DNA of 64,000 nucleotides. It comes from Escherichia phage vB_Eco_OMNI12. The notes under the pieces were generated by a model. The model did no database searches. It saw nothing but the letters and a program-made list of their open reading frames with translations, and was not told the DNA's origin. The stretch lies in the sequence record OL362041.1. One strand, given 5' to 3'. The translations under genes and the position numbers were made by a program. The number at the start of each line of letters is the position of its first letter. Positions within the stretch are counted from its first letter, which is position 1. Below, piece by piece: positions 13,057-43,459 of this stretch.

Positions 13057-14763
13057 TTATGGATAGGTATAGATGATACCAGTTTCTAAAGCAGTTTTAT
13101 GAATGATGTATCCATTGCGTGATTCTTGAACATCAACTTCTGGATAGTCTTTAATCATCTTCTGAAGAGTGTAACGATGCAGGTAGTATTTACTATCTGG
13201 GTCGTCAGTTTTCCAATCTTTACCTTCTTCGGTCATTTTTTGGATTTCATCCATAACCCACCAACCGCACCAGATATAAGCTGAAGTACGATGTGGAAGA
13301 GGATGAACATAAGGCAATTCACCTTCTGGTTCTGGAGCAACTTTATCAGTTACCTGAACTTGACCTTCTGCTGTAATAGTTTTGCTATCGTAATCAGTTG
13401 CAGTAACGACAGCAGTAACTTCAATAGTTTGACTTCCAACAGATGAGGTATCGACAGTATATACGTTAGTTGACCCTTCTACAGGAGAAGAATCTTTCTT
13501 CCATGAGTAAGTAATTTGTGCTTCTTCTGGAGCACCCGTAACATTAGCCGTAAATGTAGCCGAAGCATCTTGCTGAACGTTAATAGAAGGAGGAGTCAAT
13601 GTAACCTGTGGATTCATTGTTTTCTTATTAACAGTCAATGATACTTCATTAGAAGTAACTTCCTTTTCATTGTAATTTTCTGCAGTTACTTGCGCTACAC
13701 ACTTAACTGTTTTAGCTCCAACTGTGGTAGGAGTATAGTTAAATGTAGTAGTAGTTTCTCCATCGACCAGAGAACCGTCAACATACCACTGATACGTAGC
13801 AGACGCTCCTGGTGGCTGTGAATCCAAGGCAGCAGTAAATTGAACTGGGGTTCCAATTACTCCGGCAGCAGGATTAGCAGGAGTTACGGCTAACGTAGTT
13901 GTCTGTGTCTTCTTATTAACTGTTAATGATACTTCATTAGAAGTAACGCTTAGTGCATCATAATCTGTTGCTGTTACTTGCGCTACGCATTTAATTCTTT
14001 TTACTCCACTTGTAGTTGGAGTATAGCTAAATGTAGCAGAAGTCGCTTCACCAATTTGAGAATCATCTACATACCACTGATACGTAGCAGATGCCCCATC
14101 AGGTTGAGAAGCTAAGGCAGCAGTAAATTCAACGGCTGTTCCAATCACTCCAGCTGGAGGACTATCAGGAGTTACTGCCAAGGTAGTCGTCTGCGTCTTT
14201 TTATTAACAGTCAATGATACTTCATTAGAAGTAACGCTTAGTGCATCATAATCTGCCGCAGTTACTTGAGCTACACACTTGATTTTTTTAACTCCGCTTG
14301 TGTCAGGAGTGTAATTGAATGTAGCGTCAGTTGCTTCGTCTACAGGAGAACCGTCAACGTGCCATTGATACGTAGCGTTTGCACCTGATGGCTGTGAAGC
14401 TAAGGCAGCGGTAAATTCAATTGGAGTTCCAATCACTCCAGCATCAGGGCTACCAGGAGTTACTGCCAAAGTAGTTGTTTGTGTCTTATTTTGAACTGTG
14501 ATAGTTGTACTAATTTCAGCTGTTTCAGGTTCAGATTCTGCAACTTGATTGGTTGCAACTACTTTAATAGTCTTTTGACCGGCAGGTCCTTTTAGTACAT
14601 AACTAAAAGTTGCTGACGTTTCTTCCTGTGGAGCGTCGTCTACAGTCCAAGCATATGTAATAGGTCCATCTCCAGTTTGACCACTGGGTGTAGCAGTAAA
14701 CTGCTTAGTTTCATCAATAACCCCTGTCGGTGTTTTAGGAGTTATATCAACTGTAAAAGTCAT
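13057..14763 (-). CDS. hoc: highly immunogenic outer capsid protein Hoc, enlarged (five Ig-like modules plus capsid-binding C-terminal domain)
   Basis: 568 aa; repeated ~96 aa modules with conserved Trp/Cys Ig-like pattern; position rnlB-hoc-inh as in T4 (T4 Hoc recalled as 376 aa). Confidence 0.85.
   Translation of the reverse strand: MTFTVDITPKTPTGVIDETKQFTATPSGQTGDGPITYAWTVDDAPQEETSATFSYVLKGPAGQKTIKVVATNQVAESEPETAEISTTITVQNKTQTTTLAVTPGSPDAGVIGTPIEFTAALASQPSGANATYQWHVDGSPVDEATDATFNYTPDTSGVKKIKCVAQVTAADYDALSVTSNEVSLTVNKKTQTTTLAVTPDSPPAGVIGTAVEFTAALASQPDGASATYQWYVDDSQIGEATSATFSYTPTTSGVKRIKCVAQVTATDYDALSVTSNEVSLTVNKKTQTTTLAVTPANPAAGVIGTPVQFTAALDSQPPGASATYQWYVDGSLVDGETTTTFNYTPTTVGAKTVKCVAQVTAENYNEKEVTSNEVSLTVNKKTMNPQVTLTPPSINVQQDASATFTANVTGAPEEAQITYSWKKDSSPVEGSTNVYTVDTSSVGSQTIEVTAVVTATDYDSKTITAEGQVQVTDKVAPEPEGELPYVHPLPHRTSAYIWCGWWVMDEIQKMTEEGKDWKTDDPDSKYYLHRYTLQKMIKDYPEVDVQESRNGYIIHKTALETGIIYTYP
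13625..14488 (-). repeat. three tandem near-identical 288-bp coding repeats inside hoc
   Basis: Motif TTATTAACAGTCAATGATACTTCATTAGAAGTAAC recurs at 13625, 13913 and 14201. Confidence 0.85.
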
Positions 14764-25541: not shown

Positions 25542-25544
25542 CAA

Positions 25545-25564
25545 TGGGGACCTTTCGGTCCCCA
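25545..25564. terminator. bidirectional terminator between gene 54 and the minus-strand block
   Basis: TGGGGACC-TTTC-GGTCCCCA followed by T-run. Confidence 0.7.
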
Positions 25565-25569
25565 TATTT

Positions 25570-25860
25570 TTATTTACGGAATGAAATGAAAGCAGCAACT
25601 GAAGCAACTAAACTGTCTTCAATATAAACTTCAATTTTTACCGGAGCTTCTGACTCAAATTTACCTGTTACTACACCCTGAAAAATACTTTCAGTCTGTT
25701 CTGGCTTTGAAAAATTTTCAGAAGGAAAAATTCCGAACTTTTTATCTGTTCCAAAAATTTTGATAAATTCATCGTAAACTGCTTCATTAAAAGCATTATC
25801 AGCAGGAATAACGCCTTCAACTACAAGTTCTTGACCTAAAAAGCGCAAAGAAGATTTCAT
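25570..25860 (-). CDS. hypothetical protein downstream of alt
   Basis: 96 aa ORF; its SD lies inside the repeated hairpin element at 25868..25921. Confidence 0.5.
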   Translation of the reverse strand: MKSSLRFLGQELVVEGVIPADNAFNEAVYDEFIKIFGTDKKFGIFPSENFSKPEQTESIFQGVVTGKFESEAPVKIEVYIEDSLVASVAAFISFRK

Positions 25861-25867
25861 TTTGTGT

Positions 25868-25921
25868 TCCTCATGTTATGTCAGTAAGACTACTATAACA
25901 CAACACGAGGGACTTGTAAAC
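25868..25921 (-). repeat. 54-bp repeated hairpin element containing the SD of the downstream gene (copy A)
   Basis: 53/54 identical to 41815..41868; 12-bp stem with SD GAGG in the 3' arm. Confidence 0.8.
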
Positions 25922-27978
25922 TACATCTTGAACTTTTTAGACATTCCGTTGATGTTAACCAAAGAAGCTAAGATTTGAGAAACTTCGTTTTCCTCTTCTT
26001 TTGATTCTTCTACAAGGAATTGATTAAATCCAGCCATTGGACGAACTTCACCAGTTTCCATTAGATGGTCGCCATCATATACTGATTCTTCTAATTGTTC
26101 AGAAGGAGGAACGATTGTACCTTCGATTAGATACTTGTTATAAGCAGTTTCTTTCATAAAGTAAGTACTTACTTTATTAATCTTCAGTAAAATTCCACGT
26201 GGTAGAATAACTTCAGCTTCTGACGGAAATCCTGATAAATGACCCGGAACGATAACTTTGATTCGCTCAGCTCCTTTAATTACCATACCCACGCTAGTTT
26301 CAGCATCTTCATTAGCATATGTAGAATGACTACCCATATGCATCAAATCTTCTGCATCAACGGAACCTTCTCCTTCACCAGAAAATACTGCGCCGGAATC
26401 ATCTAGAGCCATATAGTTTTTACCATGCTCACCGAAGATATTTGGTTTAAGCGATGTGGATACGAAGTTCTTGAAATAGAACATTTTATTTTCAATGTTA
26501 TGACGCAAAGTTTTAAAGGTAACTTCTTGTCCACGGTAAAGTGTAGTTCCTGGAGGAAGAACTGAACCTTTAGCGAATGCAGAATCAAGCGTCTCAATAT
26601 GTTTAATAGCTCGTTCCATATATTCTTCACGGGTAGAATCTGGTTTACCCAAAAGGAACGAGTTCATTTCAACATATGAATCTGCACAATAATCTTCAAT
26701 TACATCAGATTCAGCTTGAGTTAATCCTTTTGGAGTTACTTCAGTGCTTGCGTATTCATATGCCTGAGCAGCAGATTCATTAATCAATTTATAAATGCCA
26801 TTCATGACAAATTGAATAATAGCTGTCTTTTCATCTGGCGTAGCTTTAGAACCTTTAACCAAATCATTGATAATTTTCTTAATAACATCAAAGCTATTAG
26901 AAATATTAATATCAGCAAGATCGCTTAAAATTTTATCAGTCTTATAATCAAAGAATTCTTTATTCTTTAAATATTCTTGAGAACCTTGATATGTTATATC
27001 GCTCTGTAACTTGATAGATGGATCACGTAAACGTGCATGGGCTAATGCAATATGATTTCGGAAGCTTTCGAGTTCATAATCACTAGATTTAAAACGAGAA
27101 GCGCTTCTCATACCGCCTATAGCTCCTTTGCTGAAGTTTGAACCAATTTGAATAACGCCAGAGTTCATTGGTCCTTCTGCTTTATACACCGGAACTTTAG
27201 ATTCAAACTCTTGATATTTCTTAGCAGCGAAGCTATCACCCTGAAGTGAAGCATCAACAGTAGAATATTGAGCTTGTGCTGCTAATCGACGACTAATTTT
27301 AGTTTTCTGAATAACAGCTTGGTCCGTGCGCTTATCATTTTCTAAAGCAATAGAAGCAGCAACAGCAACAGCTTTAGGAACAGCATTACCTGTTTTAACA
27401 TCTACATAAACATCACCAACCTTTGATTCAACTTTTGTGAATAACTCAGTTGAAATAGGAGGTACACCTGGAATGTCTTCTAAATTGGCATTTTTACGAT
27501 AAACCATAATATATGCGTACTTTTTATCATAATCCCAGATTTCCTTTAAAAGAACATATCGACCTGCTCCTTTAGTACGTACTAAACGGTCAGCAATAAC
27601 TTGCATTTGACGAGCAGCGCCATTTGTTTTACTCTTTAGTACGCGGAATAAGCATGCATCAATTTTATACTGTTTCATTGTTTGAAGAGCAGTATCAAAA
27701 ACAGCGTTAATGACGCCAATTGGATTTCCACCCAAGTTTCTAAGTTTAACCAGTGATAATTTCTCGTTGACACCTATCATTACGATATGCATCATTTTAT
27801 CGCCTGGCTTAACGTTTTTATTCGTATCACCACCAGAGGTGTATGTACAAAATCTAAATCCAGGAAGCACGCTTTCTTCGCCGGCTTGAATAGCAAAAAT
27901 TTGTGGTATTTTATGCTTAGGATTTAAGTTAACAACCGGCGCCGAAGCGCCGTCAAATAATTCTGTAATAAGTTCCAT
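25921..27978 (-). CDS. alt: Alt-like ADP-ribosyltransferase, paralog 1
   Basis: 685 aa; N-terminus MELITELFD; C-terminal R-S-E type ART motifs (TLYRGQ ... FVSTSL ... EAEVILPRG). Confidence 0.85.
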   Translation of the reverse strand: MELITELFDGASAPVVNLNPKHKIPQIFAIQAGEESVLPGFRFCTYTSGGDTNKNVKPGDKMMHIVMIGVNEKLSLVKLRNLGGNPIGVINAVFDTALQTMKQYKIDACLFRVLKSKTNGAARQMQVIADRLVRTKGAGRYVLLKEIWDYDKKYAYIMVYRKNANLEDIPGVPPISTELFTKVESKVGDVYVDVKTGNAVPKAVAVAASIALENDKRTDQAVIQKTKISRRLAAQAQYSTVDASLQGDSFAAKKYQEFESKVPVYKAEGPMNSGVIQIGSNFSKGAIGGMRSASRFKSSDYELESFRNHIALAHARLRDPSIKLQSDITYQGSQEYLKNKEFFDYKTDKILSDLADINISNSFDVIKKIINDLVKGSKATPDEKTAIIQFVMNGIYKLINESAAQAYEYASTEVTPKGLTQAESDVIEDYCADSYVEMNSFLLGKPDSTREEYMERAIKHIETLDSAFAKGSVLPPGTTLYRGQEVTFKTLRHNIENKMFYFKNFVSTSLKPNIFGEHGKNYMALDDSGAVFSGEGEGSVDAEDLMHMGSHSTYANEDAETSVGMVIKGAERIKVIVPGHLSGFPSEAEVILPRGILLKINKVSTYFMKETAYNKYLIEGTIVPPSEQLEESVYDGDHLMETGEVRPMAGFNQFLVEESKEEENEVSQILASLVNINGMSKKFKM

Positions 27979-27981
27979 GAT

Positions 27982-30039
27982 TTATCCTTGAACGAACTTG
28001 TAAGGCATGTTTGCAATATCTATACAAGACGCAATAATTCCAAGAGATGATTCTACTTTCTGTTTAACATTTGATGAAACAAATGATGCAAAATCAACTC
28101 TGTCTTCTATTTCAATATCACCTGTCATTGTAACTACTTCGCCGGTTTCCATTAGACGGTCACCGTCATAAATTACCGATTCGGTGAGTTCTTCTGTGGT
28201 CATAACTTCAGCTTGAATAAGCTTGTTGTTAGTTTTAACTGTTCCATCATTGTAAGATGCATCGGTTATTTTATTAACTTTGACCATTAATCCACGTGGC
28301 AAAATGACTTCCATTTCATTTGAAGGTGCTAAACTTCCACCTGGTAAAACAACATTGACTTTATCAGCCCCAGTAATAACCCATCCAATTCCAACTAAAT
28401 TATCGCTAGAATTTACTAGTCCTTCATCAGTTTTATCAATAGAAACACTTAAACGCTTTTCGTCTGGTAAAACACCCACAGATGAATCAGTCATCCAGGT
28501 ACCAAAAATATTTGGATATAATGATGTTGACACAAAATTTCTAAAATAAAAAACTCGATTTTTTACCAGTGCTTCATATATTGAAGGTAACATTCGTTGT
28601 GAACGATACAAAGTAATACCTTTTGGTAATCGTTCACCATTTTTAAAGGCAGAATCTAAATTATCAATAGCTTTTTCTATATCAGATGCTGTCAAAATAC
28701 TTGTACGCTCATCTGGATTATATAATCCCAAAAGAGCGTTATTTATGTCTACATATCCTGAACTTACGTATTCACGAATTCCGCGTTTTTGTGCCGGTGT
28801 GTATTTAGATGAATCTTTATTTTCGACTATAGGATGTAGTGACCATCCAGCGGTAAGAGCATATCCACGCAATTCTCTTCGAATAATCTTTGTTTTTATT
28901 GCATTCCAAGAATTTTGTACTAACTCATTCGCAGCATCTTGATTTAAATGCGAATGCTTGTTAATGTTTCTTTCTAACCAAGCACCTTTATATTTTTCTA
29001 AAGTATCATCAACTATAGAAGCAATAGTTTCTAAAGTTTTTATTGAAGTAATAGATTCTTTTCGTAATCTTTCTAAAGCTTTATTTTTTATTTCTGCATT
29101 AACATCAGATTCTTTATCTTCAGGAATTATAGAAGCTTCTCTGAATGCCATTCCAGCTGTAACACTACTAAGAGCATTCTCTAATGCAAATCCTGAAGTA
29201 GAAATAACAGTTAATTCATTAGCGTCAGAAATTAAAGGAGCGTCAGCAGGTTTATTTAATTCTGCTGCTGAAGCCTCAAATTTTTGAAACATCGGCGTTT
29301 CAAATCTAGAAGATTCCAATGATTGACTTTGCGCAATTGCTCTACGGGAAATTTTAACTTTAACGATTACAGCTTGGTCAGAACGTTTATCATTTTCTTG
29401 TGCAATAGATGCTGCAATTGCCTCATTTTTGGTTACTTGAACTCCGGTATCTTTATTGATATAAACATCACCGACCTTCGATTCAACTTTAGTAAAGAGC
29501 TCGGTACTAATTTCCGGAACTCCTGGAATGTCTTCTAGTGATACATTTTTGCGATGTATAAGAATATATGCATACTTTTTATCATAATCCCAGAGTTCCT
29601 TAAGAAGGACGTATCTGCCACCTGAACGACTACGGATAAGTCTATCAGCAATAACTTGAATTTGTCGAGCTTGACCAGCGGTTTTAGACTTAAGAATACG
29701 AAGCATACAAGCATCAATTTTATACTGACGCATTGTTTGCATTGCAACAGTAAAAACTGAATTGATATAATTAATTGGGCTTGGACCAAGACCTTTTAAT
29801 TTAGCAATTGAACCTTTAGCAGTTAATGTAAAAGGAACAATATGCATCATTTTATCGCCCATCTTTAAATCGCGATTAGTATCACCTCCAGATGTATAGG
29901 TACATAAACGAAAACCTGGTTGTTCAATTGCATCATCAACATGAACTGAAAAAATTTGTGGTATTTTCTTCTTTGGATTTAAGTTTGTAATCGGAAGAGT
30001 AGTATCTTCGTCAAATAATTCTGTAATAAGTTCCATCAT
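27982..30039 (-). CDS. alt: Alt-like ADP-ribosyltransferase, paralog 2
   Basis: 685 aa; same N-terminus; ART motifs (TLYRSQ ... FVSTSL ... EMEVILPRG); late promoter upstream. Confidence 0.85.
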   Translation of the reverse strand: MMELITELFDEDTTLPITNLNPKKKIPQIFSVHVDDAIEQPGFRLCTYTSGGDTNRDLKMGDKMMHIVPFTLTAKGSIAKLKGLGPSPINYINSVFTVAMQTMRQYKIDACMLRILKSKTAGQARQIQVIADRLIRSRSGGRYVLLKELWDYDKKYAYILIHRKNVSLEDIPGVPEISTELFTKVESKVGDVYINKDTGVQVTKNEAIAASIAQENDKRSDQAVIVKVKISRRAIAQSQSLESSRFETPMFQKFEASAAELNKPADAPLISDANELTVISTSGFALENALSSVTAGMAFREASIIPEDKESDVNAEIKNKALERLRKESITSIKTLETIASIVDDTLEKYKGAWLERNINKHSHLNQDAANELVQNSWNAIKTKIIRRELRGYALTAGWSLHPIVENKDSSKYTPAQKRGIREYVSSGYVDINNALLGLYNPDERTSILTASDIEKAIDNLDSAFKNGERLPKGITLYRSQRMLPSIYEALVKNRVFYFRNFVSTSLYPNIFGTWMTDSSVGVLPDEKRLSVSIDKTDEGLVNSSDNLVGIGWVITGADKVNVVLPGGSLAPSNEMEVILPRGLMVKVNKITDASYNDGTVKTNNKLIQAEVMTTEELTESVIYDGDRLMETGEVVTMTGDIEIEDRVDFASFVSSNVKQKVESSLGIIASCIDIANMPYKFVQG

Positions 30040-30059: not shown

Positions 30060-30067
30060 TATTTATA
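30060..30067 (-). promoter_or_regulatory. late promoter TATAAATA (minus strand) upstream of alt paralog 2
   Basis: TATTTATA on plus strand 21 nt from the alt start. Confidence 0.6.
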
Positions 30068-30073
30068 AAATTA

Positions 30074-30090
30074 AAGGCCCGAAGGCCTTT
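30074..30090 (-). terminator. terminator hairpin downstream of gene 30 block
   Basis: AAAGGCC-CGAA-GGCCTTT. Confidence 0.55.
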
Positions 30091-30277
30091 AGTAATCTAG
30101 TGGTAAGAGAGTACGATATATTTCAAACTTTGGTCCTTTTTCATAGGCATCAAATGTTTCTGTAAATTTATTATAAGCGTATGCATCTACAAATTCGAGA
30201 ATGACTTGTGATACAGAAGTAGAAACATCTCCACCTTCTTTTTGAGCAATGACAATTGTTTCTAAGTAAGCTTTCAT
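30089..30277 (-). CDS. hypothetical small protein
   Basis: 62 aa ORF between gene 30 and alt, start overlaps stop of gene 30. Confidence 0.4.
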   Translation of the reverse strand: MKAYLETIVIAQKEGGDVSTSVSQVILEFVDAYAYNKFTETFDAYEKGPKFEIYRTLLPLDY

Positions 30278-34043: not shown

Positions 34044-34410
34044 ATTCGTTAAGAACTACATCAAAGATTGCTTCAAGATGCTCAGGTTTAGCTCTGTTAC
34101 TCAGAATATGACGAATCCAAGTTTTAACCAAAAGCTTGCGATTAACGCCATTCCAGCAAGGATGAGTCCCTAAATCGCGTTCACGGAAATCATCATCCAG
34201 AGCGATTTTAAAGTTGGAACCTTCCATCGTGATTGAAACCGTGATACCGTTTTCAAATCGCATATAAACGTAATTAGGAGTCATATACTGCTCAATTTCG
34301 CATACTGATCCATTTTGATGTTTCCAAAGGCAAATAGTATCAATAGAACCTGCAATACTATTAGAAACATATTTACGTTCAAAGTTGATGTAGTTCATTT
34401 TATTCTCCAA
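34033..34410 (-). CDS. hypothetical protein
   Basis: 125 aa ORF; hairpin GGTACAGG/CCTGTACC upstream. Confidence 0.45.
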   Translation of the reverse strand: MENKMNYINFERKYVSNSIAGSIDTICLWKHQNGSVCEIEQYMTPNYVYMRFENGITVSITMEGSNFKIALDDDFRERDLGTHPCWNGVNRKLLVKTWIRHILSNRAKPEHLEAIFDVVLNEFDI

Positions 34411-34465
34411 GATGTTTAATTGCGGTACAGGTATATAATATCATATCCTGTACCAAAGTAAACAA

Positions 34466-34798
34466 TTATTTTACTACTTTCCAATGCTGCATGTCAAGTT
34501 TACCAACTTTTTTCATCTTCTCAATTAAGCGTTCGGCACGTTGGCGAGCTGTAACATAATACCATTCACCTAATTCATTTTGTTCAATTTTTCCAACGAT
34601 TACTGTATTCAATTCATAAATCCAACCAGTAAAGAAATTATGAACTTGAATTGTAAAGGTGAAATCTGTTCCCATACCTTCTGTTGTTTCTACTTCAATA
34701 ATATCACCTTCAACTGCCATTAAGAACCACATAGTTTCATCATATTTACCATTGAAGCATTTAGTTTTAACTGCAGCGTTCAGATTAATCGTTTTCAT
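34466..34798 (-). CDS. hypothetical protein
   Basis: 110 aa ORF. Confidence 0.45.
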   Translation of the reverse strand: MKTINLNAAVKTKCFNGKYDETMWFLMAVEGDIIEVETTEGMGTDFTFTIQVHNFFTGWIYELNTVIVGKIEQNELGEWYYVTARQRAERLIEKMKKVGKLDMQHWKVVK

Positions 34799-34885
34799 TT
34801 TATTCTCCTTTGTTTGTGTAAGATAATACTATCACAAAGGAACCATACTGTAAACAACTTTATGCAATCTTTGGAAAATAAAAAA

Positions 34886-37966: not shown

Positions 37967-38487
37967 GTTGATCCTAGCTCCTTACTTTCAACATTTTTAA
38001 CTAATTTGACAGAAACTAATTCAGCATCTTGGGTAATCATTACCGGACCTTCTTCATGCTCTTCAAGATATTCTAGAGCTTTCTTTTTAGCTTCTTCCTT
38101 CGTATCAGTTTGAGCATAGATATAGAACATACAACCAGTAATACCTACTACTTTCCACTTAATTTCTTTATCAGTTTTAATTTCAAATTTACTTACAGAA
38201 TCATCTTTTTGAACTTCTTCGAAAAAAGAATATTCTAACATATAAGCAATTGAAAATAACGGGCTAACTTTATAGGATTCACCCATTACATCAACAGCTT
38301 TATACCAACAATCATCAATTTCACGTTTAATGCTAATAACATTTTTCGCAGGATCTATTTTTACTTTAAATGAATTTTCCCCAATAAACTGGGCAATTCG
38401 TTTATTAGCCCCGCAAGTTTCATTAAAAATATCTTTATATCCAGCTTTAAAGCGATAAACCTTATCTTCTTCAAACCATTCGCTCAT
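37960..38487 (-). CDS. hypothetical protein (cd.x block)
   Basis: 175 aa ORF. Confidence 0.5.
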   Translation of the reverse strand: MSEWFEEDKVYRFKAGYKDIFNETCGANKRIAQFIGENSFKVKIDPAKNVISIKREIDDCWYKAVDVMGESYKVSPLFSIAYMLEYSFFEEVQKDDSVSKFEIKTDKEIKWKVVGITGCMFYIYAQTDTKEEAKKKALEYLEEHEEGPVMITQDAELVSVKLVKNVESKELGSTC

Positions 38488-38549
38488 TTCAATTTCCTCA
38501 TTTGTTTTGGTAGAGCTATAATATCACAACTCTACCGTAAAGTAAACTA

Positions 38550-40963: not shown

Positions 40964-41313
40964 TTAGAAAGGTCCTGGATGTCTTCTGCGAACTTGTTGA
41001 AGGAGTTGTTGATTTGTTTTTCAACCAATCCTGGCTTACGAGCCACCACATCCGCCTTCTTTGCATCTTTGCGCAGTTTTTCATTTTCACGCTCAATAGC
41101 AGCAATCGCCTCACGATTTTTATTATTCATCGCATCAATATAATTATACTGAATTCGCAAATTATTTAATGCTAAGGCGTTTTCATTGGCCGTTTTTGTA
41201 ATTTCTACAACAGACGTTTCTAATCTTTCAATTTTATTTTTTAAAATTAAAGAAGTTCCGCCTAATGCAATTACAATTAATAGCAAACCTGCTGTCGTAT
41301 TACTTAATTGCAT
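40960..41313 (-). CDS. membrane-anchored coiled-coil protein, candidate i-spanin
   Basis: 117 aa; N-terminal hydrophobic helix GLLLIVIALGGTSLIL then charged heptad-like region. Confidence 0.55.
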   Translation of the reverse strand: MQLSNTTAGLLLIVIALGGTSLILKNKIERLETSVVEITKTANENALALNNLRIQYNYIDAMNNKNREAIAAIERENEKLRKDAKKADVVARKPGLVEKQINNSFNKFAEDIQDLSK

Positions 41314-41810
41314 AAAGTTTTAATAACCTCTATAATATCGTCTTGAGAAAGACCGTTAATTAAAATATGATGTTCAGCCGGAGATTTAGAAATTTTAAAG
41401 CATGCCTCAACATCTTCTGCCATATCCGATGCACTACGATTTGGATTACTAATTCCAAGACGATGCTTTCCAGTCAAAGGATTAACGATGATATAGCATT
41501 TACAACTATTGATATGAACATTAGGTTGAGTCTGATTAATAAATACATCACAATCATATTTCGCAAGCTGATTTTCTAAAAAGACTTTCATCTCTTCAAC
41601 CGCATCAGGAAGCATATCACGGGCTTGCTCAAGACGACGATTTCGATATTCTTTAATGGTCGTTTTCCGCTTGACTTGCTTAGCTAAATCTTTCTTAAGA
41701 TCGGTGATATATCCAACTCGACGGTTTCCTTTAAATACAGAAATCCCATCTGTAGTATCACCGTATGCTTCAACGACCATTTCAGTAGTAATGAGCTGCA
41801 AATCCATCAT
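41304..41810 (-). CDS. alc: Alc-like transcription terminator for cytosine-containing DNA
   Basis: 168 aa; position between the pseT.x block and rnlA as in T4; SD inside repeated hairpin element. Confidence 0.55.
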   Translation of the reverse strand: MMDLQLITTEMVVEAYGDTTDGISVFKGNRRVGYITDLKKDLAKQVKRKTTIKEYRNRRLEQARDMLPDAVEEMKVFLENQLAKYDCDVFINQTQPNVHINSCKCYIIVNPLTGKHRLGISNPNRSASDMAEDVEACFKISKSPAEHHILINGLSQDDIIEVIKTLCN

Positions 41811-41814
41811 AAAG

Positions 41815-41868
41815 TCCTCATGTTATGTCAGTAAGACTACTGTAACACAACACGAGGGACTTGTAAAC
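41815..41868 (-). repeat. 54-bp repeated hairpin element containing the SD of alc (copy B)
   Basis: 53/54 identical to 25868..25921. Confidence 0.8.
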
Positions 41869-41871
41869 AGC

Positions 41872-43459
<1,588 letters not shown>

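What the first reader, a model, noticed from the sequence alone, without database searches (positions are those of the whole stretch)
41815..41868. Second copy of the SD-sequestering hairpin element, upstream of alc (copy B)
Same element as at 25868..25921, with one A/G difference that falls in the loop. Here GAGGA lies 4 nt before the alc AUG, and the element directly follows the rnlA stop codon.
Basis: seen in the sequence. Interest (0 to 1): 0.5.

Follow-up and report, generated by a model that had tools for sequence, protein, structure and literature searches.

The report
Early promoter hidden inside alc hairpin
The 54-base repeat in front of the T4-type alc gene is an early promoter built into an RNA hairpin, so that only transcripts started at that promoter should expose the ribosome-binding site; it is an early-gene version of a switch that T4 is known to use for late genes.

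Summary
Window 41815..41868 (minus strand) repeats 25868..25921 at 53 of 54 bases. On the sense RNA it folds into a strong hairpin (-25.7 kcal/mol, z -6) that pairs the GAGGA Shine-Dalgarno. The window is a Tequatrovirus (T4 genus); 499 phage records carry the element, nearly all as two copies.

The 5' arm is the promoter spacer. Transcripts started here therefore lack that arm (opening the SD costs about 1.6 kcal/mol). Read-through RNA from rnlA forms the hairpin (about 7-11 kcal/mol).

The single difference is not in the loop. It is position 3 of the -10 hexamer and a stem pair (C-G, U.G, or U-A in T4).

At the alc locus this layout persists across Tevenvirinae genera with different, mutually complementary arms (permutation p<5e-5). 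Strong pairing occurs in 26/34 alc cassettes and 0/33 cassettes of other genes. At alt.-3 only Tequatrovirus has it, so that copy looks like a duplicated cassette.

It fits the published PeSL promoter-stem-loop class and mirrors the late-promoter hairpins of e, soc, 49 and I-TevI. No transcript 5' end or translation measurement was available. Verdict: new variant of a known kind, moderate interest.

The parts
41872..41874 (-). rnlA (gene 63) stop codon TAA, 3 nt upstream of the element
   Evidence: ORF 41872..43032; sequence; homolog of T4 rnlA.
41862..41868 (-). -35 element GTTTACA of a T4-type early promoter (copy B)
   Evidence: Promoter scan hit TTTACA-17-TACAGT with TG. It matches the GTTTACA consensus of 75 cassettes. 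The same site is annotated as a predicted promoter in fPS-65 (there called early) and JB75.
41845..41861 (-). 17-nt promoter spacer, which is also the 5' arm of the hairpin (anti-SD CCCUC plus GUGUUGUGU); its last 3 nt are the TGn extended -10
   Evidence: Fold. Duplex spacer versus 5'UTR -22.2 kcal/mol, z -6.3 against shuffled spacers.
41839..41844 (-). -10 hexamer TACAGT (TATAGT in copy A and in T4); position 3 (41842) is the single site that differs between the copies
   Evidence: The site pairs with the G (A in the T4 alt.-3 copy) of UACUG, giving C-G, U.G or U-A.
41829..41842 (-). Apical stem-loop CAGUA-GUCU-UACUG of the read-through hairpin
41832..41832 (-). Predicted transcription start (A, 7 nt after the -10 hexamer, in the conserved T-A-C context); inferred, not measured
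   Evidence: Among 75 cassettes, T at +6 in 89%, A at +7 in 89%, C at +8 in 73%.
41812..41828 (-). 3' arm of the hairpin, containing the Shine-Dalgarno GAGGA (41815..41819)
   Evidence: The free energy to open the SD is 7.2 kcal/mol on read-through RNA and 1.6 kcal/mol on the predicted primary transcript.
41304..41810 (-). alc (inhibitor of host transcription); tandem AUGAUG start, the second AUG (41807..41805) being the start annotated in T4
25868..25921 (-). Copy A of the same cassette: -35 at 25915..25921, -10 TATAGT at 25892..25897, SD at 25868..25872. It lies between the stop of the second alt paralog (TAG 25921..25923) and the alt.-3 homolog
25570..25860 (-). alt.-3 homolog (96 aa), the gene served by copy A

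Best explanation
The element is a compact early-gene cassette of the T4 type. It consists of a strong sigma-70 early promoter (GTTTACA, 17-nt spacer ending in TGn, TAYAGT) followed by a short leader that carries the Shine-Dalgarno and start codon of alc. The promoter spacer has evolved to be complementary to the SD region.

On RNA that enters from upstream (rnlA and the genes before it), spacer and SD pair into a hairpin of about 22 bp. This hairpin should strongly reduce initiation at alc. RNA polymerase that starts at the cassette's own promoter begins about 7 nt after the -10 hexamer, downstream of the 5' arm, so that transcript has a free SD and is translated.

The predicted result is that Alc is made only from its own immediate-early promoter and is insulated from delayed-early, middle or late read-through. 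The same cassette sits in front of alt.-3 in the T4 genus, directly behind the late-transcribed alt genes.

Shown here: the repeat, the promoter match, the predicted hairpin, the difference in SD accessibility, and co-variation of the two arms across genera that is specific to the alc locus. Inferred: the position of the transcription start, the size of the translational block, and its biological purpose.
For: Repeat and fold:
-.

Promoter:
- TTTACA-17-TACAGT/TATAGT with TG.
- Predicted-promoter annotations in related records.
- Fit to the consensus of 75 cassettes, including the conserved T-A-C start context.
- My scan also recovers the T4-documented Pe133295 site.

Expression class switches at both copies in T4:
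- alt has late protein and middle RNA; alt.-1 and alt.-2 have middle RNA; alt.-3 has early RNA and early protein.
- rnlA has early RNA and late protein; alc has early RNA and early protein (PMC9697503).

Accessibility:
- The free energy to open the SD is 7.2 kcal/mol (alc) and 11.1 kcal/mol (alt.-3) on read-through RNA, against 1.6 and 1.8 kcal/mol on the predicted primary transcripts.

Covariation at alc:
- Gelderlandvirus, Karamvirus, Jiaodavirus, Dhakavirus, Marfavirus and other lineages keep a -35-to-ATG distance of 59-63 nt, but with different arms, e.g. UCUCCAUUUGGUU/AACCAAAUGGAGA and UCCUCAUCAG/CUGAUGAGGA.
- Cognate spacer/leader duplexes have median -17.7 kcal/mol; non-cognate pairs have median -7.5. 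Of 17 lineages, 11 rank first. Permutation gave 0/20000.

Locus specificity:
- A duplex of -14 kcal/mol or stronger occurs in 26/34 alc cassettes, 5/5 Tequatrovirus alt.-3 cassettes, 0/2 alt.-3 cassettes of other genera and 0/33 cassettes of other genes.
- One Dhaka-like genome uses the same leader module at alc and at alt.-3, but only the alc spacer is anti-SD.

Within Tequatrovirus:
- All three substitution types seen in the 11-bp middle stem preserve pairing.
- The variable site runs C-G, U.G, U-A.
- G.U pairs make the sense strand 5-8 kcal/mol more stable than the antisense strand.

Precedent:
- The RBS hairpin of gene e lowers lysozyme synthesis about 100-fold on long transcripts (PMC3014915).
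Against: - No 5'-end mapping or translation measurement for alc or alt.-3 was found. The start site and the block are predictions.
- In T4 RNA-seq at 5 min, read density in the first replicate group of Table S1 is lower over alc (12.9 reads/nt) than over rnlA (21.2). It rises only modestly from alt.-2 (9.6) to alt.-3 (15.6). This neither shows a strong promoter at that time nor excludes partial attenuation at the hairpin.
- 5 of the 17 sampled alc lineages do not pair the SD. In L037 (its variant L054 likewise) and L044 the hairpin stops just 5' of the SD. Mosigvirus L042, L040, L055 and L056 have only a local spacer hairpin or none. The feature is therefore dispensable.
- alt.-3 cassettes of five other genera do not sequester the SD, so copy A may be a tolerated by-product of duplication.
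- Outside Tequatrovirus the stems are almost all Watson-Crick, so an RNA-level and a DNA-level structure cannot be told apart there.
- The upstream stop codon lies 6-9 nt before the 5' arm. Terminating ribosomes might partly open the base of the stem.
- No late-promoter consensus lies near rnlA, so the 'late read-through' rationale is documented only for alt.
Confidence: 0.68

Rival explanations
1. The stem-loop acts mainly as a transcription terminator or attenuator for RNA polymerase arriving from rnlA or alt, as proposed for the stem-loops of PeSL cassettes. Pairing of the SD would then be incidental.
For: [quoted passage not shown] T4 RNA-seq density falls from rnlA to alc.
Against: No U tract follows the stem: CUUUAUGA at alc, ACACAAAA at alt.-3, A-rich in other genera. 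The terminator scan finds nothing at either copy. A terminator need not include the SD, yet the 3' arm includes the SD in 12 of 17 alc lineages, and strong spacer-leader complementarity is absent from 33 other cassettes.
Confidence: 0.14
2. The hairpin is an RNA processing or stability element. It would be an RNase III-type cleavage site, or a 3' protective stem that separates and stabilises the upstream rnlA or alt message.
For: The stem is about 22 bp and nearly continuous, within the size range of RNase III substrates (general knowledge). It sits exactly at the gene boundary.
Against: No processing data were found. Stems in other genera are shorter (9-14 bp), which is poor for RNase III. 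This idea does not explain why the SD is the conserved partner, or why the feature is specific to alc.
Confidence: 0.07
3. The hairpin is a translational coupling device. It keeps alc silent on polycistronic RNA unless a ribosome finishing rnlA melts the stem, which would tie Alc synthesis to RnlA synthesis.
For: The upstream stop codon lies at a fixed short distance. TAG abuts TTTACA in most genera, and the gap is 3 nt in this window.
Against: The first paired base is 6-9 nt past the stop codon. That is at or beyond the reach of the ribosomal helicase (about +11 from the P site; general knowledge), so at most one or two base pairs would open. In T4 the two proteins fall in different temporal classes: RnlA late, Alc early.
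Confidence: 0.06
4. The inverted repeat works at the DNA level. It would be a cruciform that modulates the promoter, a palindromic protein site, or a recombination hot spot that merely homogenises promoter cassettes.
For: Single-stranded DNA folding is significant on both strands (-13.1 and -10.1 kcal/mol). PeSL cassettes recombine with each other. The two loci share a cassette, and leader modules are shared between loci in other genera.
Against: The arm sequences are not conserved between genera; only their complementarity is. That argues against a protein site. In Tequatrovirus, G.U pairs favour the sense RNA. Recombination explains the copying but not the alc-specific anti-SD spacers.
Confidence: 0.05

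Closest known systems
T4 RBS-sequestering hairpins with an internal promoter (genes e, soc, 49, I-TevI/II/III, segB; mobE of Aeh1)
   Same: A stable RNA helix pairs the SD on long read-through transcripts. A promoter lies so that its own transcript lacks the 5' arm and can be translated (PMC2988022, PMC3014915).
   Different: In every described case the internal promoter is late (or middle) and the gene is late; the review says 'they are all late genes'. Here the internal promoter is a sigma-70 early promoter and the genes are early. The polarity of the switch is therefore reversed: translation is confined to the immediate-early transcript. The 5' arm here is the promoter spacer itself.
PeSL (promoter-early stem-loop) cassettes of T4-like phages (Arbiol 2010; Comeau 2014)
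   Same: Upstream stop codon, A/T-rich stretch, -35, -10, a stem-loop between -35 and -10 or overlapping the -10, and SD plus start codon at the 3' end. The T4/PST promoter consensus is TTTACW-N17-TAYWAT. The cassettes are repeated in the genome and prone to exchange between loci.
   Different: PeSL stem-loops are interpreted as terminators or attenuators, and the 2010 paper never uses the word 'translation'. Here the 3' arm is the SD region and no U tract follows. The 2014 figure legend for PST places the stem-loop just upstream of the promoter. Whether these two T4 sites are on the published PeSL lists could not be checked, because figures are not held.
T4 early promoters (Pe; 'UP/-35/TGn/-10' class)
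   Same: GTTTACA -35, 17-nt spacer, TGn, TAnnnT -10, and A/T-rich DNA upstream (inside the rnlA coding end).
   Different: The -10 is TACAGT in this window (TATAGT in T4 and in copy A), which is one step further from TATAAT. No published start-site measurement for this promoter could be retrieved.
Intrinsic (Rho-independent) terminators
   Same: A stable G+C-containing hairpin at the end of a gene.
   Different: There is no U run after the stem. The consensus scan does not call it.

Membership tests
T4-type early promoter | -35 GTTTAC(A/T), 17 +/- 1 nt spacer, -10 TAnnnT | tested here: met
   TTTACA-17-TACAGT (9/12) and TTTACA-17-TATAGT (10/12).
T4-type early promoter | Extended -10 TGn | tested here: met
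   TG is flagged by the scan at both copies.
T4-type early promoter | A/T-rich UP-like region upstream of -35 | tested here: met
   AAAAATTATAAAAAATTTAT lies 20-40 nt upstream of the -35 at alc. The family profile is A/T-rich upstream. The stretch is weaker at copy A.
T4-type early promoter | Initiation immediately after infection without phage proteins | not testable with these tools
   Indirect only. T4 alc and alt.-3 are classed as early RNA and early protein, while the genes upstream are middle or late.
T4 promoter-in-hairpin translational switch (e/soc/49/I-TevI type) | A stable helix includes the SD and/or AUG on long transcripts | tested here: met
   Prediction only: -25.7 kcal/mol, z -6; the SD is paired; opening it costs 7-11 kcal/mol.
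T4 promoter-in-hairpin translational switch (e/soc/49/I-TevI type) | The promoter is positioned so that its transcript lacks the 5' arm | tested here: met
   The whole 5' arm lies upstream of the -10 hexamer. On the predicted primary transcript the SD opens for 1.6-1.8 kcal/mol. The start site is inferred.
T4 promoter-in-hairpin translational switch (e/soc/49/I-TevI type) | The internal promoter is a late promoter (TATAAATA) and the gene is late | tested here: not met
   There is no TATAAATA at the element. The promoter is of the sigma-70 early type, and the genes are early.
T4 promoter-in-hairpin translational switch (e/soc/49/I-TevI type) | Measured translational repression on long transcripts | not testable with these tools
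   This needs reporter fusions, toeprinting or Ribo-seq.
PeSL cassette | An intergenic unit made of upstream stop codon, A/T-rich stretch, sigma-70-like promoter, stem-loop, SD and start codon | tested here: met
   All components are present within 67 nt. Definition taken.
PeSL cassette | The stem-loop acts as a terminator or attenuator | tested here: inconclusive
   No U tract and no terminator call. Read density drops from rnlA to alc at 5 min.
PeSL cassette | Repeated in the genome and associated with exchange between loci | tested here: met
   997 places in 499 records, nearly all with two places each. Leader modules are shared between alc, alt.-3 and a third gene in other genera. In T4 the alt.-3 copy abuts a rearranged alt paralog.
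Intrinsic terminator | A G+C-rich hairpin followed by a U run | tested here: not met
Any Rfam family | A match at or near the gathering score | tested here: not met
   The best hits score 16 bits against a threshold of 135, E = 1.3.

The most novel reading that the evidence does not exclude
Across Tevenvirinae, alc is the one early gene (among those sampled) whose promoter spacer is kept complementary to its own ribosome-binding site. This implies selection to confine Alc synthesis strictly to transcripts from its own immediate-early promoter. Alc made later, from read-through RNA, would then be harmful to the phage, for example by acting on not-yet-modified phage DNA or on late transcription. 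The T4 genus then copied this 'insulated early cassette' to a second locus behind the late alt genes. It would be a reusable, portable module that sets both when a gene is transcribed and from which transcripts it is translated.
Probability: 0.35. Interest if true: 0.55.

Novelty: new variant of a known kind. Interest (0 to 1): 0.42.

Why it matters
T4 is the textbook case of using promoter position inside an RNA hairpin to decide which transcripts of a gene are translated. So far that logic has been described for late genes sitting in early regions.

This element applies the same logic in the opposite temporal direction. It does so in a single 54-nt unit that is promoter, anti-SD, leader and SD at once. 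At alc it is maintained by compensatory change in most of the sampled genera (12 of 17 lineages).

If confirmed, three things follow:
- Alc dosage or timing is under unusually tight control.
- The stem-loops that overlap T4-type early promoters would gain a concrete function besides termination.
- Phage and synthetic-biology designs would gain a compact natural part that insulates a gene from upstream transcription at the level of translation.

It also shows that annotating such sites only as 'promoter' or only as 'hairpin' misses half of the mechanism.

Tried and rejected
- **T4 records.** NC_000866 and AF158101 carry no promoter features at either site. The published table of T4 middle promoters has no entry for rnlA, alc or alt.-3.
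- **Miller 2003.** The MMBR genome review, which holds the list of T4 early promoters, is not held.
- **Literature searches.** Searches for 'alt.-3', for Pe136/Pe123-style promoter names, for T4 start-site data sets and for an alc hairpin gave nothing relevant. The PeSL paper has no held supplement.
- **14-mer scan.** A 20-specified-base pattern found only 8 viral and 9 metagenome stretches, so variation within the genus is thinly sampled.
- **MAFFT alignment.** The alignment of the cassettes puts the 3' arms out of register between genera. I therefore did not use alignment-based pair counts, and used a cognate versus non-cognate duplex permutation test instead.
- **Late promoter upstream of rnlA.** Rejected: there is no TATAAATA on that strand within about 8 kb. 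A MotA-box-like TGCTT plus TGn-TACTAT upstream of rnlA was noted but not pursued.
- **Rfam.** No family matches.
- **Gene conversion between the two copies.** This cannot be claimed. One or two differences in 54 nt is also what plain conservation within this tight genus would give.
- **Direction of copying (alc to alt.-3 or the reverse).** Not settled. The architecture is ancestral at alc, but the string AACATGAGGAACA resembles the alt.-3 leaders of other genera.

Full report
**What is there**

The window is a T4-genus phage (Tequatrovirus). A 1-kb stretch around the finding is 99.5% identical to Shigella phage Sf21 and 98.9% to T6, and 497 phage records match it. The genes here run on the minus strand.

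On that strand the finding reads GTTTACAAGTCCCTCGTGTTGTGTTACAGTAGTCTTACTGACATAACATGAGGA. It lies between the rnlA stop (TAA, 41874..41872) and alc (first AUG at 41810). The other copy, at 25868..25921, differs at one base.

- A mismatch-tolerant search finds only these two sites, against none in 100 shuffles. An independent repeat finder reports the same 54-nt pair.
- Identity begins at the G of GTTTACA and ends with GAGGA; the flanks are unrelated.
- The sense RNA folds into a hairpin of about 22 bp: -25.7 kcal/mol, z -6.1 for copy B and -23.0 kcal/mol, z -4.4 for copy A. GAGGA lies in the 3' arm.

- The single difference is a stem position and position 3 of a -10 hexamer, not a loop base.
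- GAGGA is 4 nt from the first AUG of a tandem AUGAUG and 7 nt from the second, which is the T4-annotated start.
- Three nucleotides separate the rnlA stop from the element.

The same 54 nt are a sigma-70 promoter of the T4 early type:

- TTTACA, 17 nt, TACAGT (copy B) or TATAGT (copy A), each preceded by TG.
- An A/T-rich stretch lies upstream, inside the end of rnlA.
- Three related records annotate a predicted promoter at exactly this place: fPS-65 (which calls it an early promoter), JB75 and SA21RB.
- A profile of 75 distinct cassettes from T4-like phages gives GTTTACA-N17 (ending TGTG.)-TAt.AT, followed by a conserved T-A-C 6-8 nt after the -10. The element fits this profile. The likely start is the A at 41832 (copy B) and 25885 (copy A). 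This start is inferred, not measured.

The 5' arm of the hairpin is the promoter spacer and lies wholly upstream of the -10 hexamer. Any transcript from this promoter therefore lacks it. The computed cost of opening the SD is 7.2 kcal/mol (alc) and 11.1 kcal/mol (alt.-3) on read-through RNA. On the predicted primary transcripts it is 1.6 and 1.8 kcal/mol.

**Context of the two copies**

Copy A follows the stop codon of a second full-length alt paralog. The two paralogs are tandem 685-aa genes at 27982..30039 and 25921..27978. The pair is preceded by a terminator hairpin and a perfect late promoter TATAAATA at 30060..30067. In T4 this second paralog survives only as alt.-1 and alt.-2, and the cassette sits between alt.-2 and alt.-3.

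Published time-resolved data for T4 (PMC9697503) give these classes:

| Gene | RNA class | Protein class |
|---|---|---|
| alt | middle | late |
| alt.-1, alt.-2 | middle | not classed (NA) |
| alt.-3 | early | early |
| denA | middle | late |
| rnlA | early | late |
| alc | early | early |

The temporal class thus switches at both copies, as expected if each carries its own early promoter.

RNA-seq at 5 min is not decisive. Read density, in reads per nt for the first replicate group of Table S1:

| Gene | Reads/nt |
|---|---|
| rnlA | 21.2 |
| alc | 12.9 |
| alt.-2 | 9.6 |
| alt.-3 | 15.6 |

**Comparative evidence**

The 65-nt region occurs at 997 places in 499 phage records, nearly all with two places each. 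Going by organism names and the records inspected, these are T4-genus phages. T4 itself has both copies.

That genus is very tight: Alc is at least 95% identical within it and at most about 60% to the other genera listed, so conservation inside it says little. I therefore fetched the rnlA-alc junction from other genera.

- Nearly all keep the layout stop codon, GTTTACA, 17-nt spacer, TGn-TAnnnT, short leader, SD, AUG, with a -35-to-ATG distance of 59-63 nt.
- The spacer and the SD region are mutually complementary but differ between lineages. Examples are UCUCCGUUU/AAACGGAGA, UCUCCAUUUGGUU/AACCAAAUGGAGA, UCCUCAUCAG/CUGAUGAGGA, ACCUCUCAUUUU/AAAAUGAGAGGU and CCUCGUUUGUU/AACAAACGAGG.
- In a test that pairs each spacer with its own leader or with those of the other 16 lineages, cognate duplexes have median -17.7 kcal/mol and non-cognate ones -7.5. 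Eleven lineages rank first, and no permutation out of 20000 reaches the observed mean.
- Twelve of 17 lineages pair the SD. In two the stem ends just 5' of it. Mosigvirus and a few others have only a small hairpin inside the spacer, or none.

Among 74 distinct early-promoter cassettes in all fetched DNA, a spacer-leader duplex of -14 kcal/mol or stronger is distributed as follows (the cassettes are not phylogenetically independent):

| Cassette group | With duplex of -14 kcal/mol or stronger |
|---|---|
| alc | 26 of 34 |
| alt.-3, Tequatrovirus | 5 of 5 |
| alt.-3, other genera | 0 of 2 |
| other genes | 0 of 33 |

- By eye, the alt.-3 junctions of five other genera all have the promoter but not the sequestration.
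- One Dhaka-like genome uses the identical leader module CCTTACACAAACATGAGGAGAACATTATG at alc and at alt.-3. Only the alc spacer (TCTCCTCATG) is anti-SD.
- Within Tequatrovirus, the few substitutions in the 11-bp middle stem all preserve pairing. The variable -10 site forms C-G, U.G or U-A with its partner.
- G.U pairs make the sense strand 5-8 kcal/mol more stable than the antisense strand.

**Mechanism**

The best-supported reading has two outcomes, depending on where transcription starts. RNA arriving from upstream folds the spacer onto the SD, and alc is not initiated. RNA started at the cassette's own promoter has a free SD.

This is the logic established for T4 e, soc, 49, I-TevI and relatives. 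There a late promoter sits inside the hairpin, and the helix lowers lysozyme synthesis about 100-fold on long transcripts. The temporal sign is reversed here. [quoted passage not shown]

The element also fits the published PeSL description: stop codon, A/T-rich stretch, -35, -10, a stem-loop between -35 and -10 or overlapping the -10, and SD plus start codon. Its authors read the stem-loops as terminators and did not discuss translation.

A terminator role is not supported by sequence, since there is no U tract and no terminator call. Partial attenuation cannot be excluded.

Other rivals are weaker but untested: an RNase III or stability element, translational coupling to rnlA, and a DNA-level palindrome. 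None of them explains why the SD is the conserved partner, or why only alc shows it.

**What is shown and what is inferred**

Shown by computation on sequence:
- the repeat, the promoter match, the predicted structure and its significance;
- the accessibility contrast;
- the alc-specific covariation;
- the restriction of the alt.-3 copy to the T4 genus.

Taken from the literature:
- the temporal classes of the T4 genes;
- the precedent for promoter-in-hairpin switches;
- the PeSL concept.

Inferred:
- the start site;
- the size of the translational block in vivo;
- the biological reason, namely confining Alc to the immediate-early window;
- that copy A arose by copying a cassette between the two loci (direction unresolved).

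**Novelty and score**

The promoter is probably on old T4 lists that I could not access. Cassettes of this general kind are published. The comprehensive 2010 reviews of T4 post-transcriptional control and of RBS hairpins do not mention alc.

I rate it a new variant of a known kind. It is of moderate interest to phage RNA biologists (0.42) and directly testable with fusions and 5'-end mapping.

Noticed in passing
window 25921..27978 and 27982..30039 (minus strand): Two tandem full-length alt (ADP-ribosyltransferase) paralogs, both 685 aa. T4's small ORFs alt.-1 and alt.-2 correspond to the start of the second paralog joined to its last codons (…KKFKM*), so T4 carries an internal deletion of a gene that is intact here.
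   Followed up: partly
window 30060..30100 (minus strand): A G+C-rich terminator-like hairpin (AAAGGCCTTCGGGCCTTT followed by a T run) lies directly before a perfect late promoter TATAAATA and the first alt gene. Late alt transcripts would run into copy A about 4 kb downstream.
   Followed up: partly
window 34798..34854 (minus strand): A third, weaker case of the same layout lies upstream of the gene 30.8 homolog. It reads GTTTACA-17-TAGTAT, with spacer UUCCUUUGUG complementary to CAAAGGAG at the SD (duplex -11.3 kcal/mol, z -3.0).
   Followed up: partly
window 34398..34462 and 38487..38546 (minus strand): Two other early-promoter cassettes lie upstream of the 30.7 homolog and at the site matching T4 Pe133295. 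Their inverted repeats flank the -10 hexamer (GGTACAGG…CCTGTACC; GGTAGAG…CTCTACC) and do not reach the SD. The same type replaces SD sequestration at alc in some genera (L037, L044). Their function is unexplained.
   Followed up: no
L013-L017 (alt to alt.-3 junctions of Dhaka-, Mosig-, Marfa-, Karam- and Gelderlandvirus) and L011/L042 (Mosigvirus alc): The promoter spacers contain a short local hairpin with a GGA-containing loop (e.g. [quoted passage not shown] This is a recurrent motif of unknown role.
   Followed up: no
L198, L200, L199/L202: An identical 29-nt leader module (CCTTACACAAACATGAGGAGAACATTATG) serves alc, alt.-3 and an unrelated gene (MINTFRKYGEMK…) in different genera. This suggests that leader and SD modules are exchanged between early cassettes.
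   Followed up: partly
L009, L028, L029, L058 (Gaprivervirus VR7 group): Between rnlA and alc there is an extra ORF annotated as a partial alc-like gene. It is preceded by a terminator-like hairpin whose loop holds a -35-like TGTACA, then CATAAT, then an SD hairpin GGUUCCAUCA/UGAUGAGGACC. This is a rearranged version of the same switch.
   Followed up: no
window 43010..43060 (minus strand): Upstream of rnlA lies a MotA-box-like TGCTT followed 15 nt later by TGG-TACTAT, a possible middle promoter. It is not in the published T4 middle-promoter table.
   Followed up: no
window 25544..25565: A perfect 9-bp G+C-rich hairpin with T runs on both strands lies between gene 54 (+) and alt.-3 (-). It looks like a bidirectional terminator at the convergent gene ends.
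   Followed up: no
window 13619..14494: Three tandem copies of a unit of about 288-300 nt (78% identity) lie inside a coding region; found by the repeat finder.
   Followed up: no
L011 (phage NHEP10): The annotated alc start (overlapping the rnlA stop) is probably about 60 nt too far upstream. The conserved promoter, SD and ATG lie inside the annotated N-terminus.
   Followed up: no
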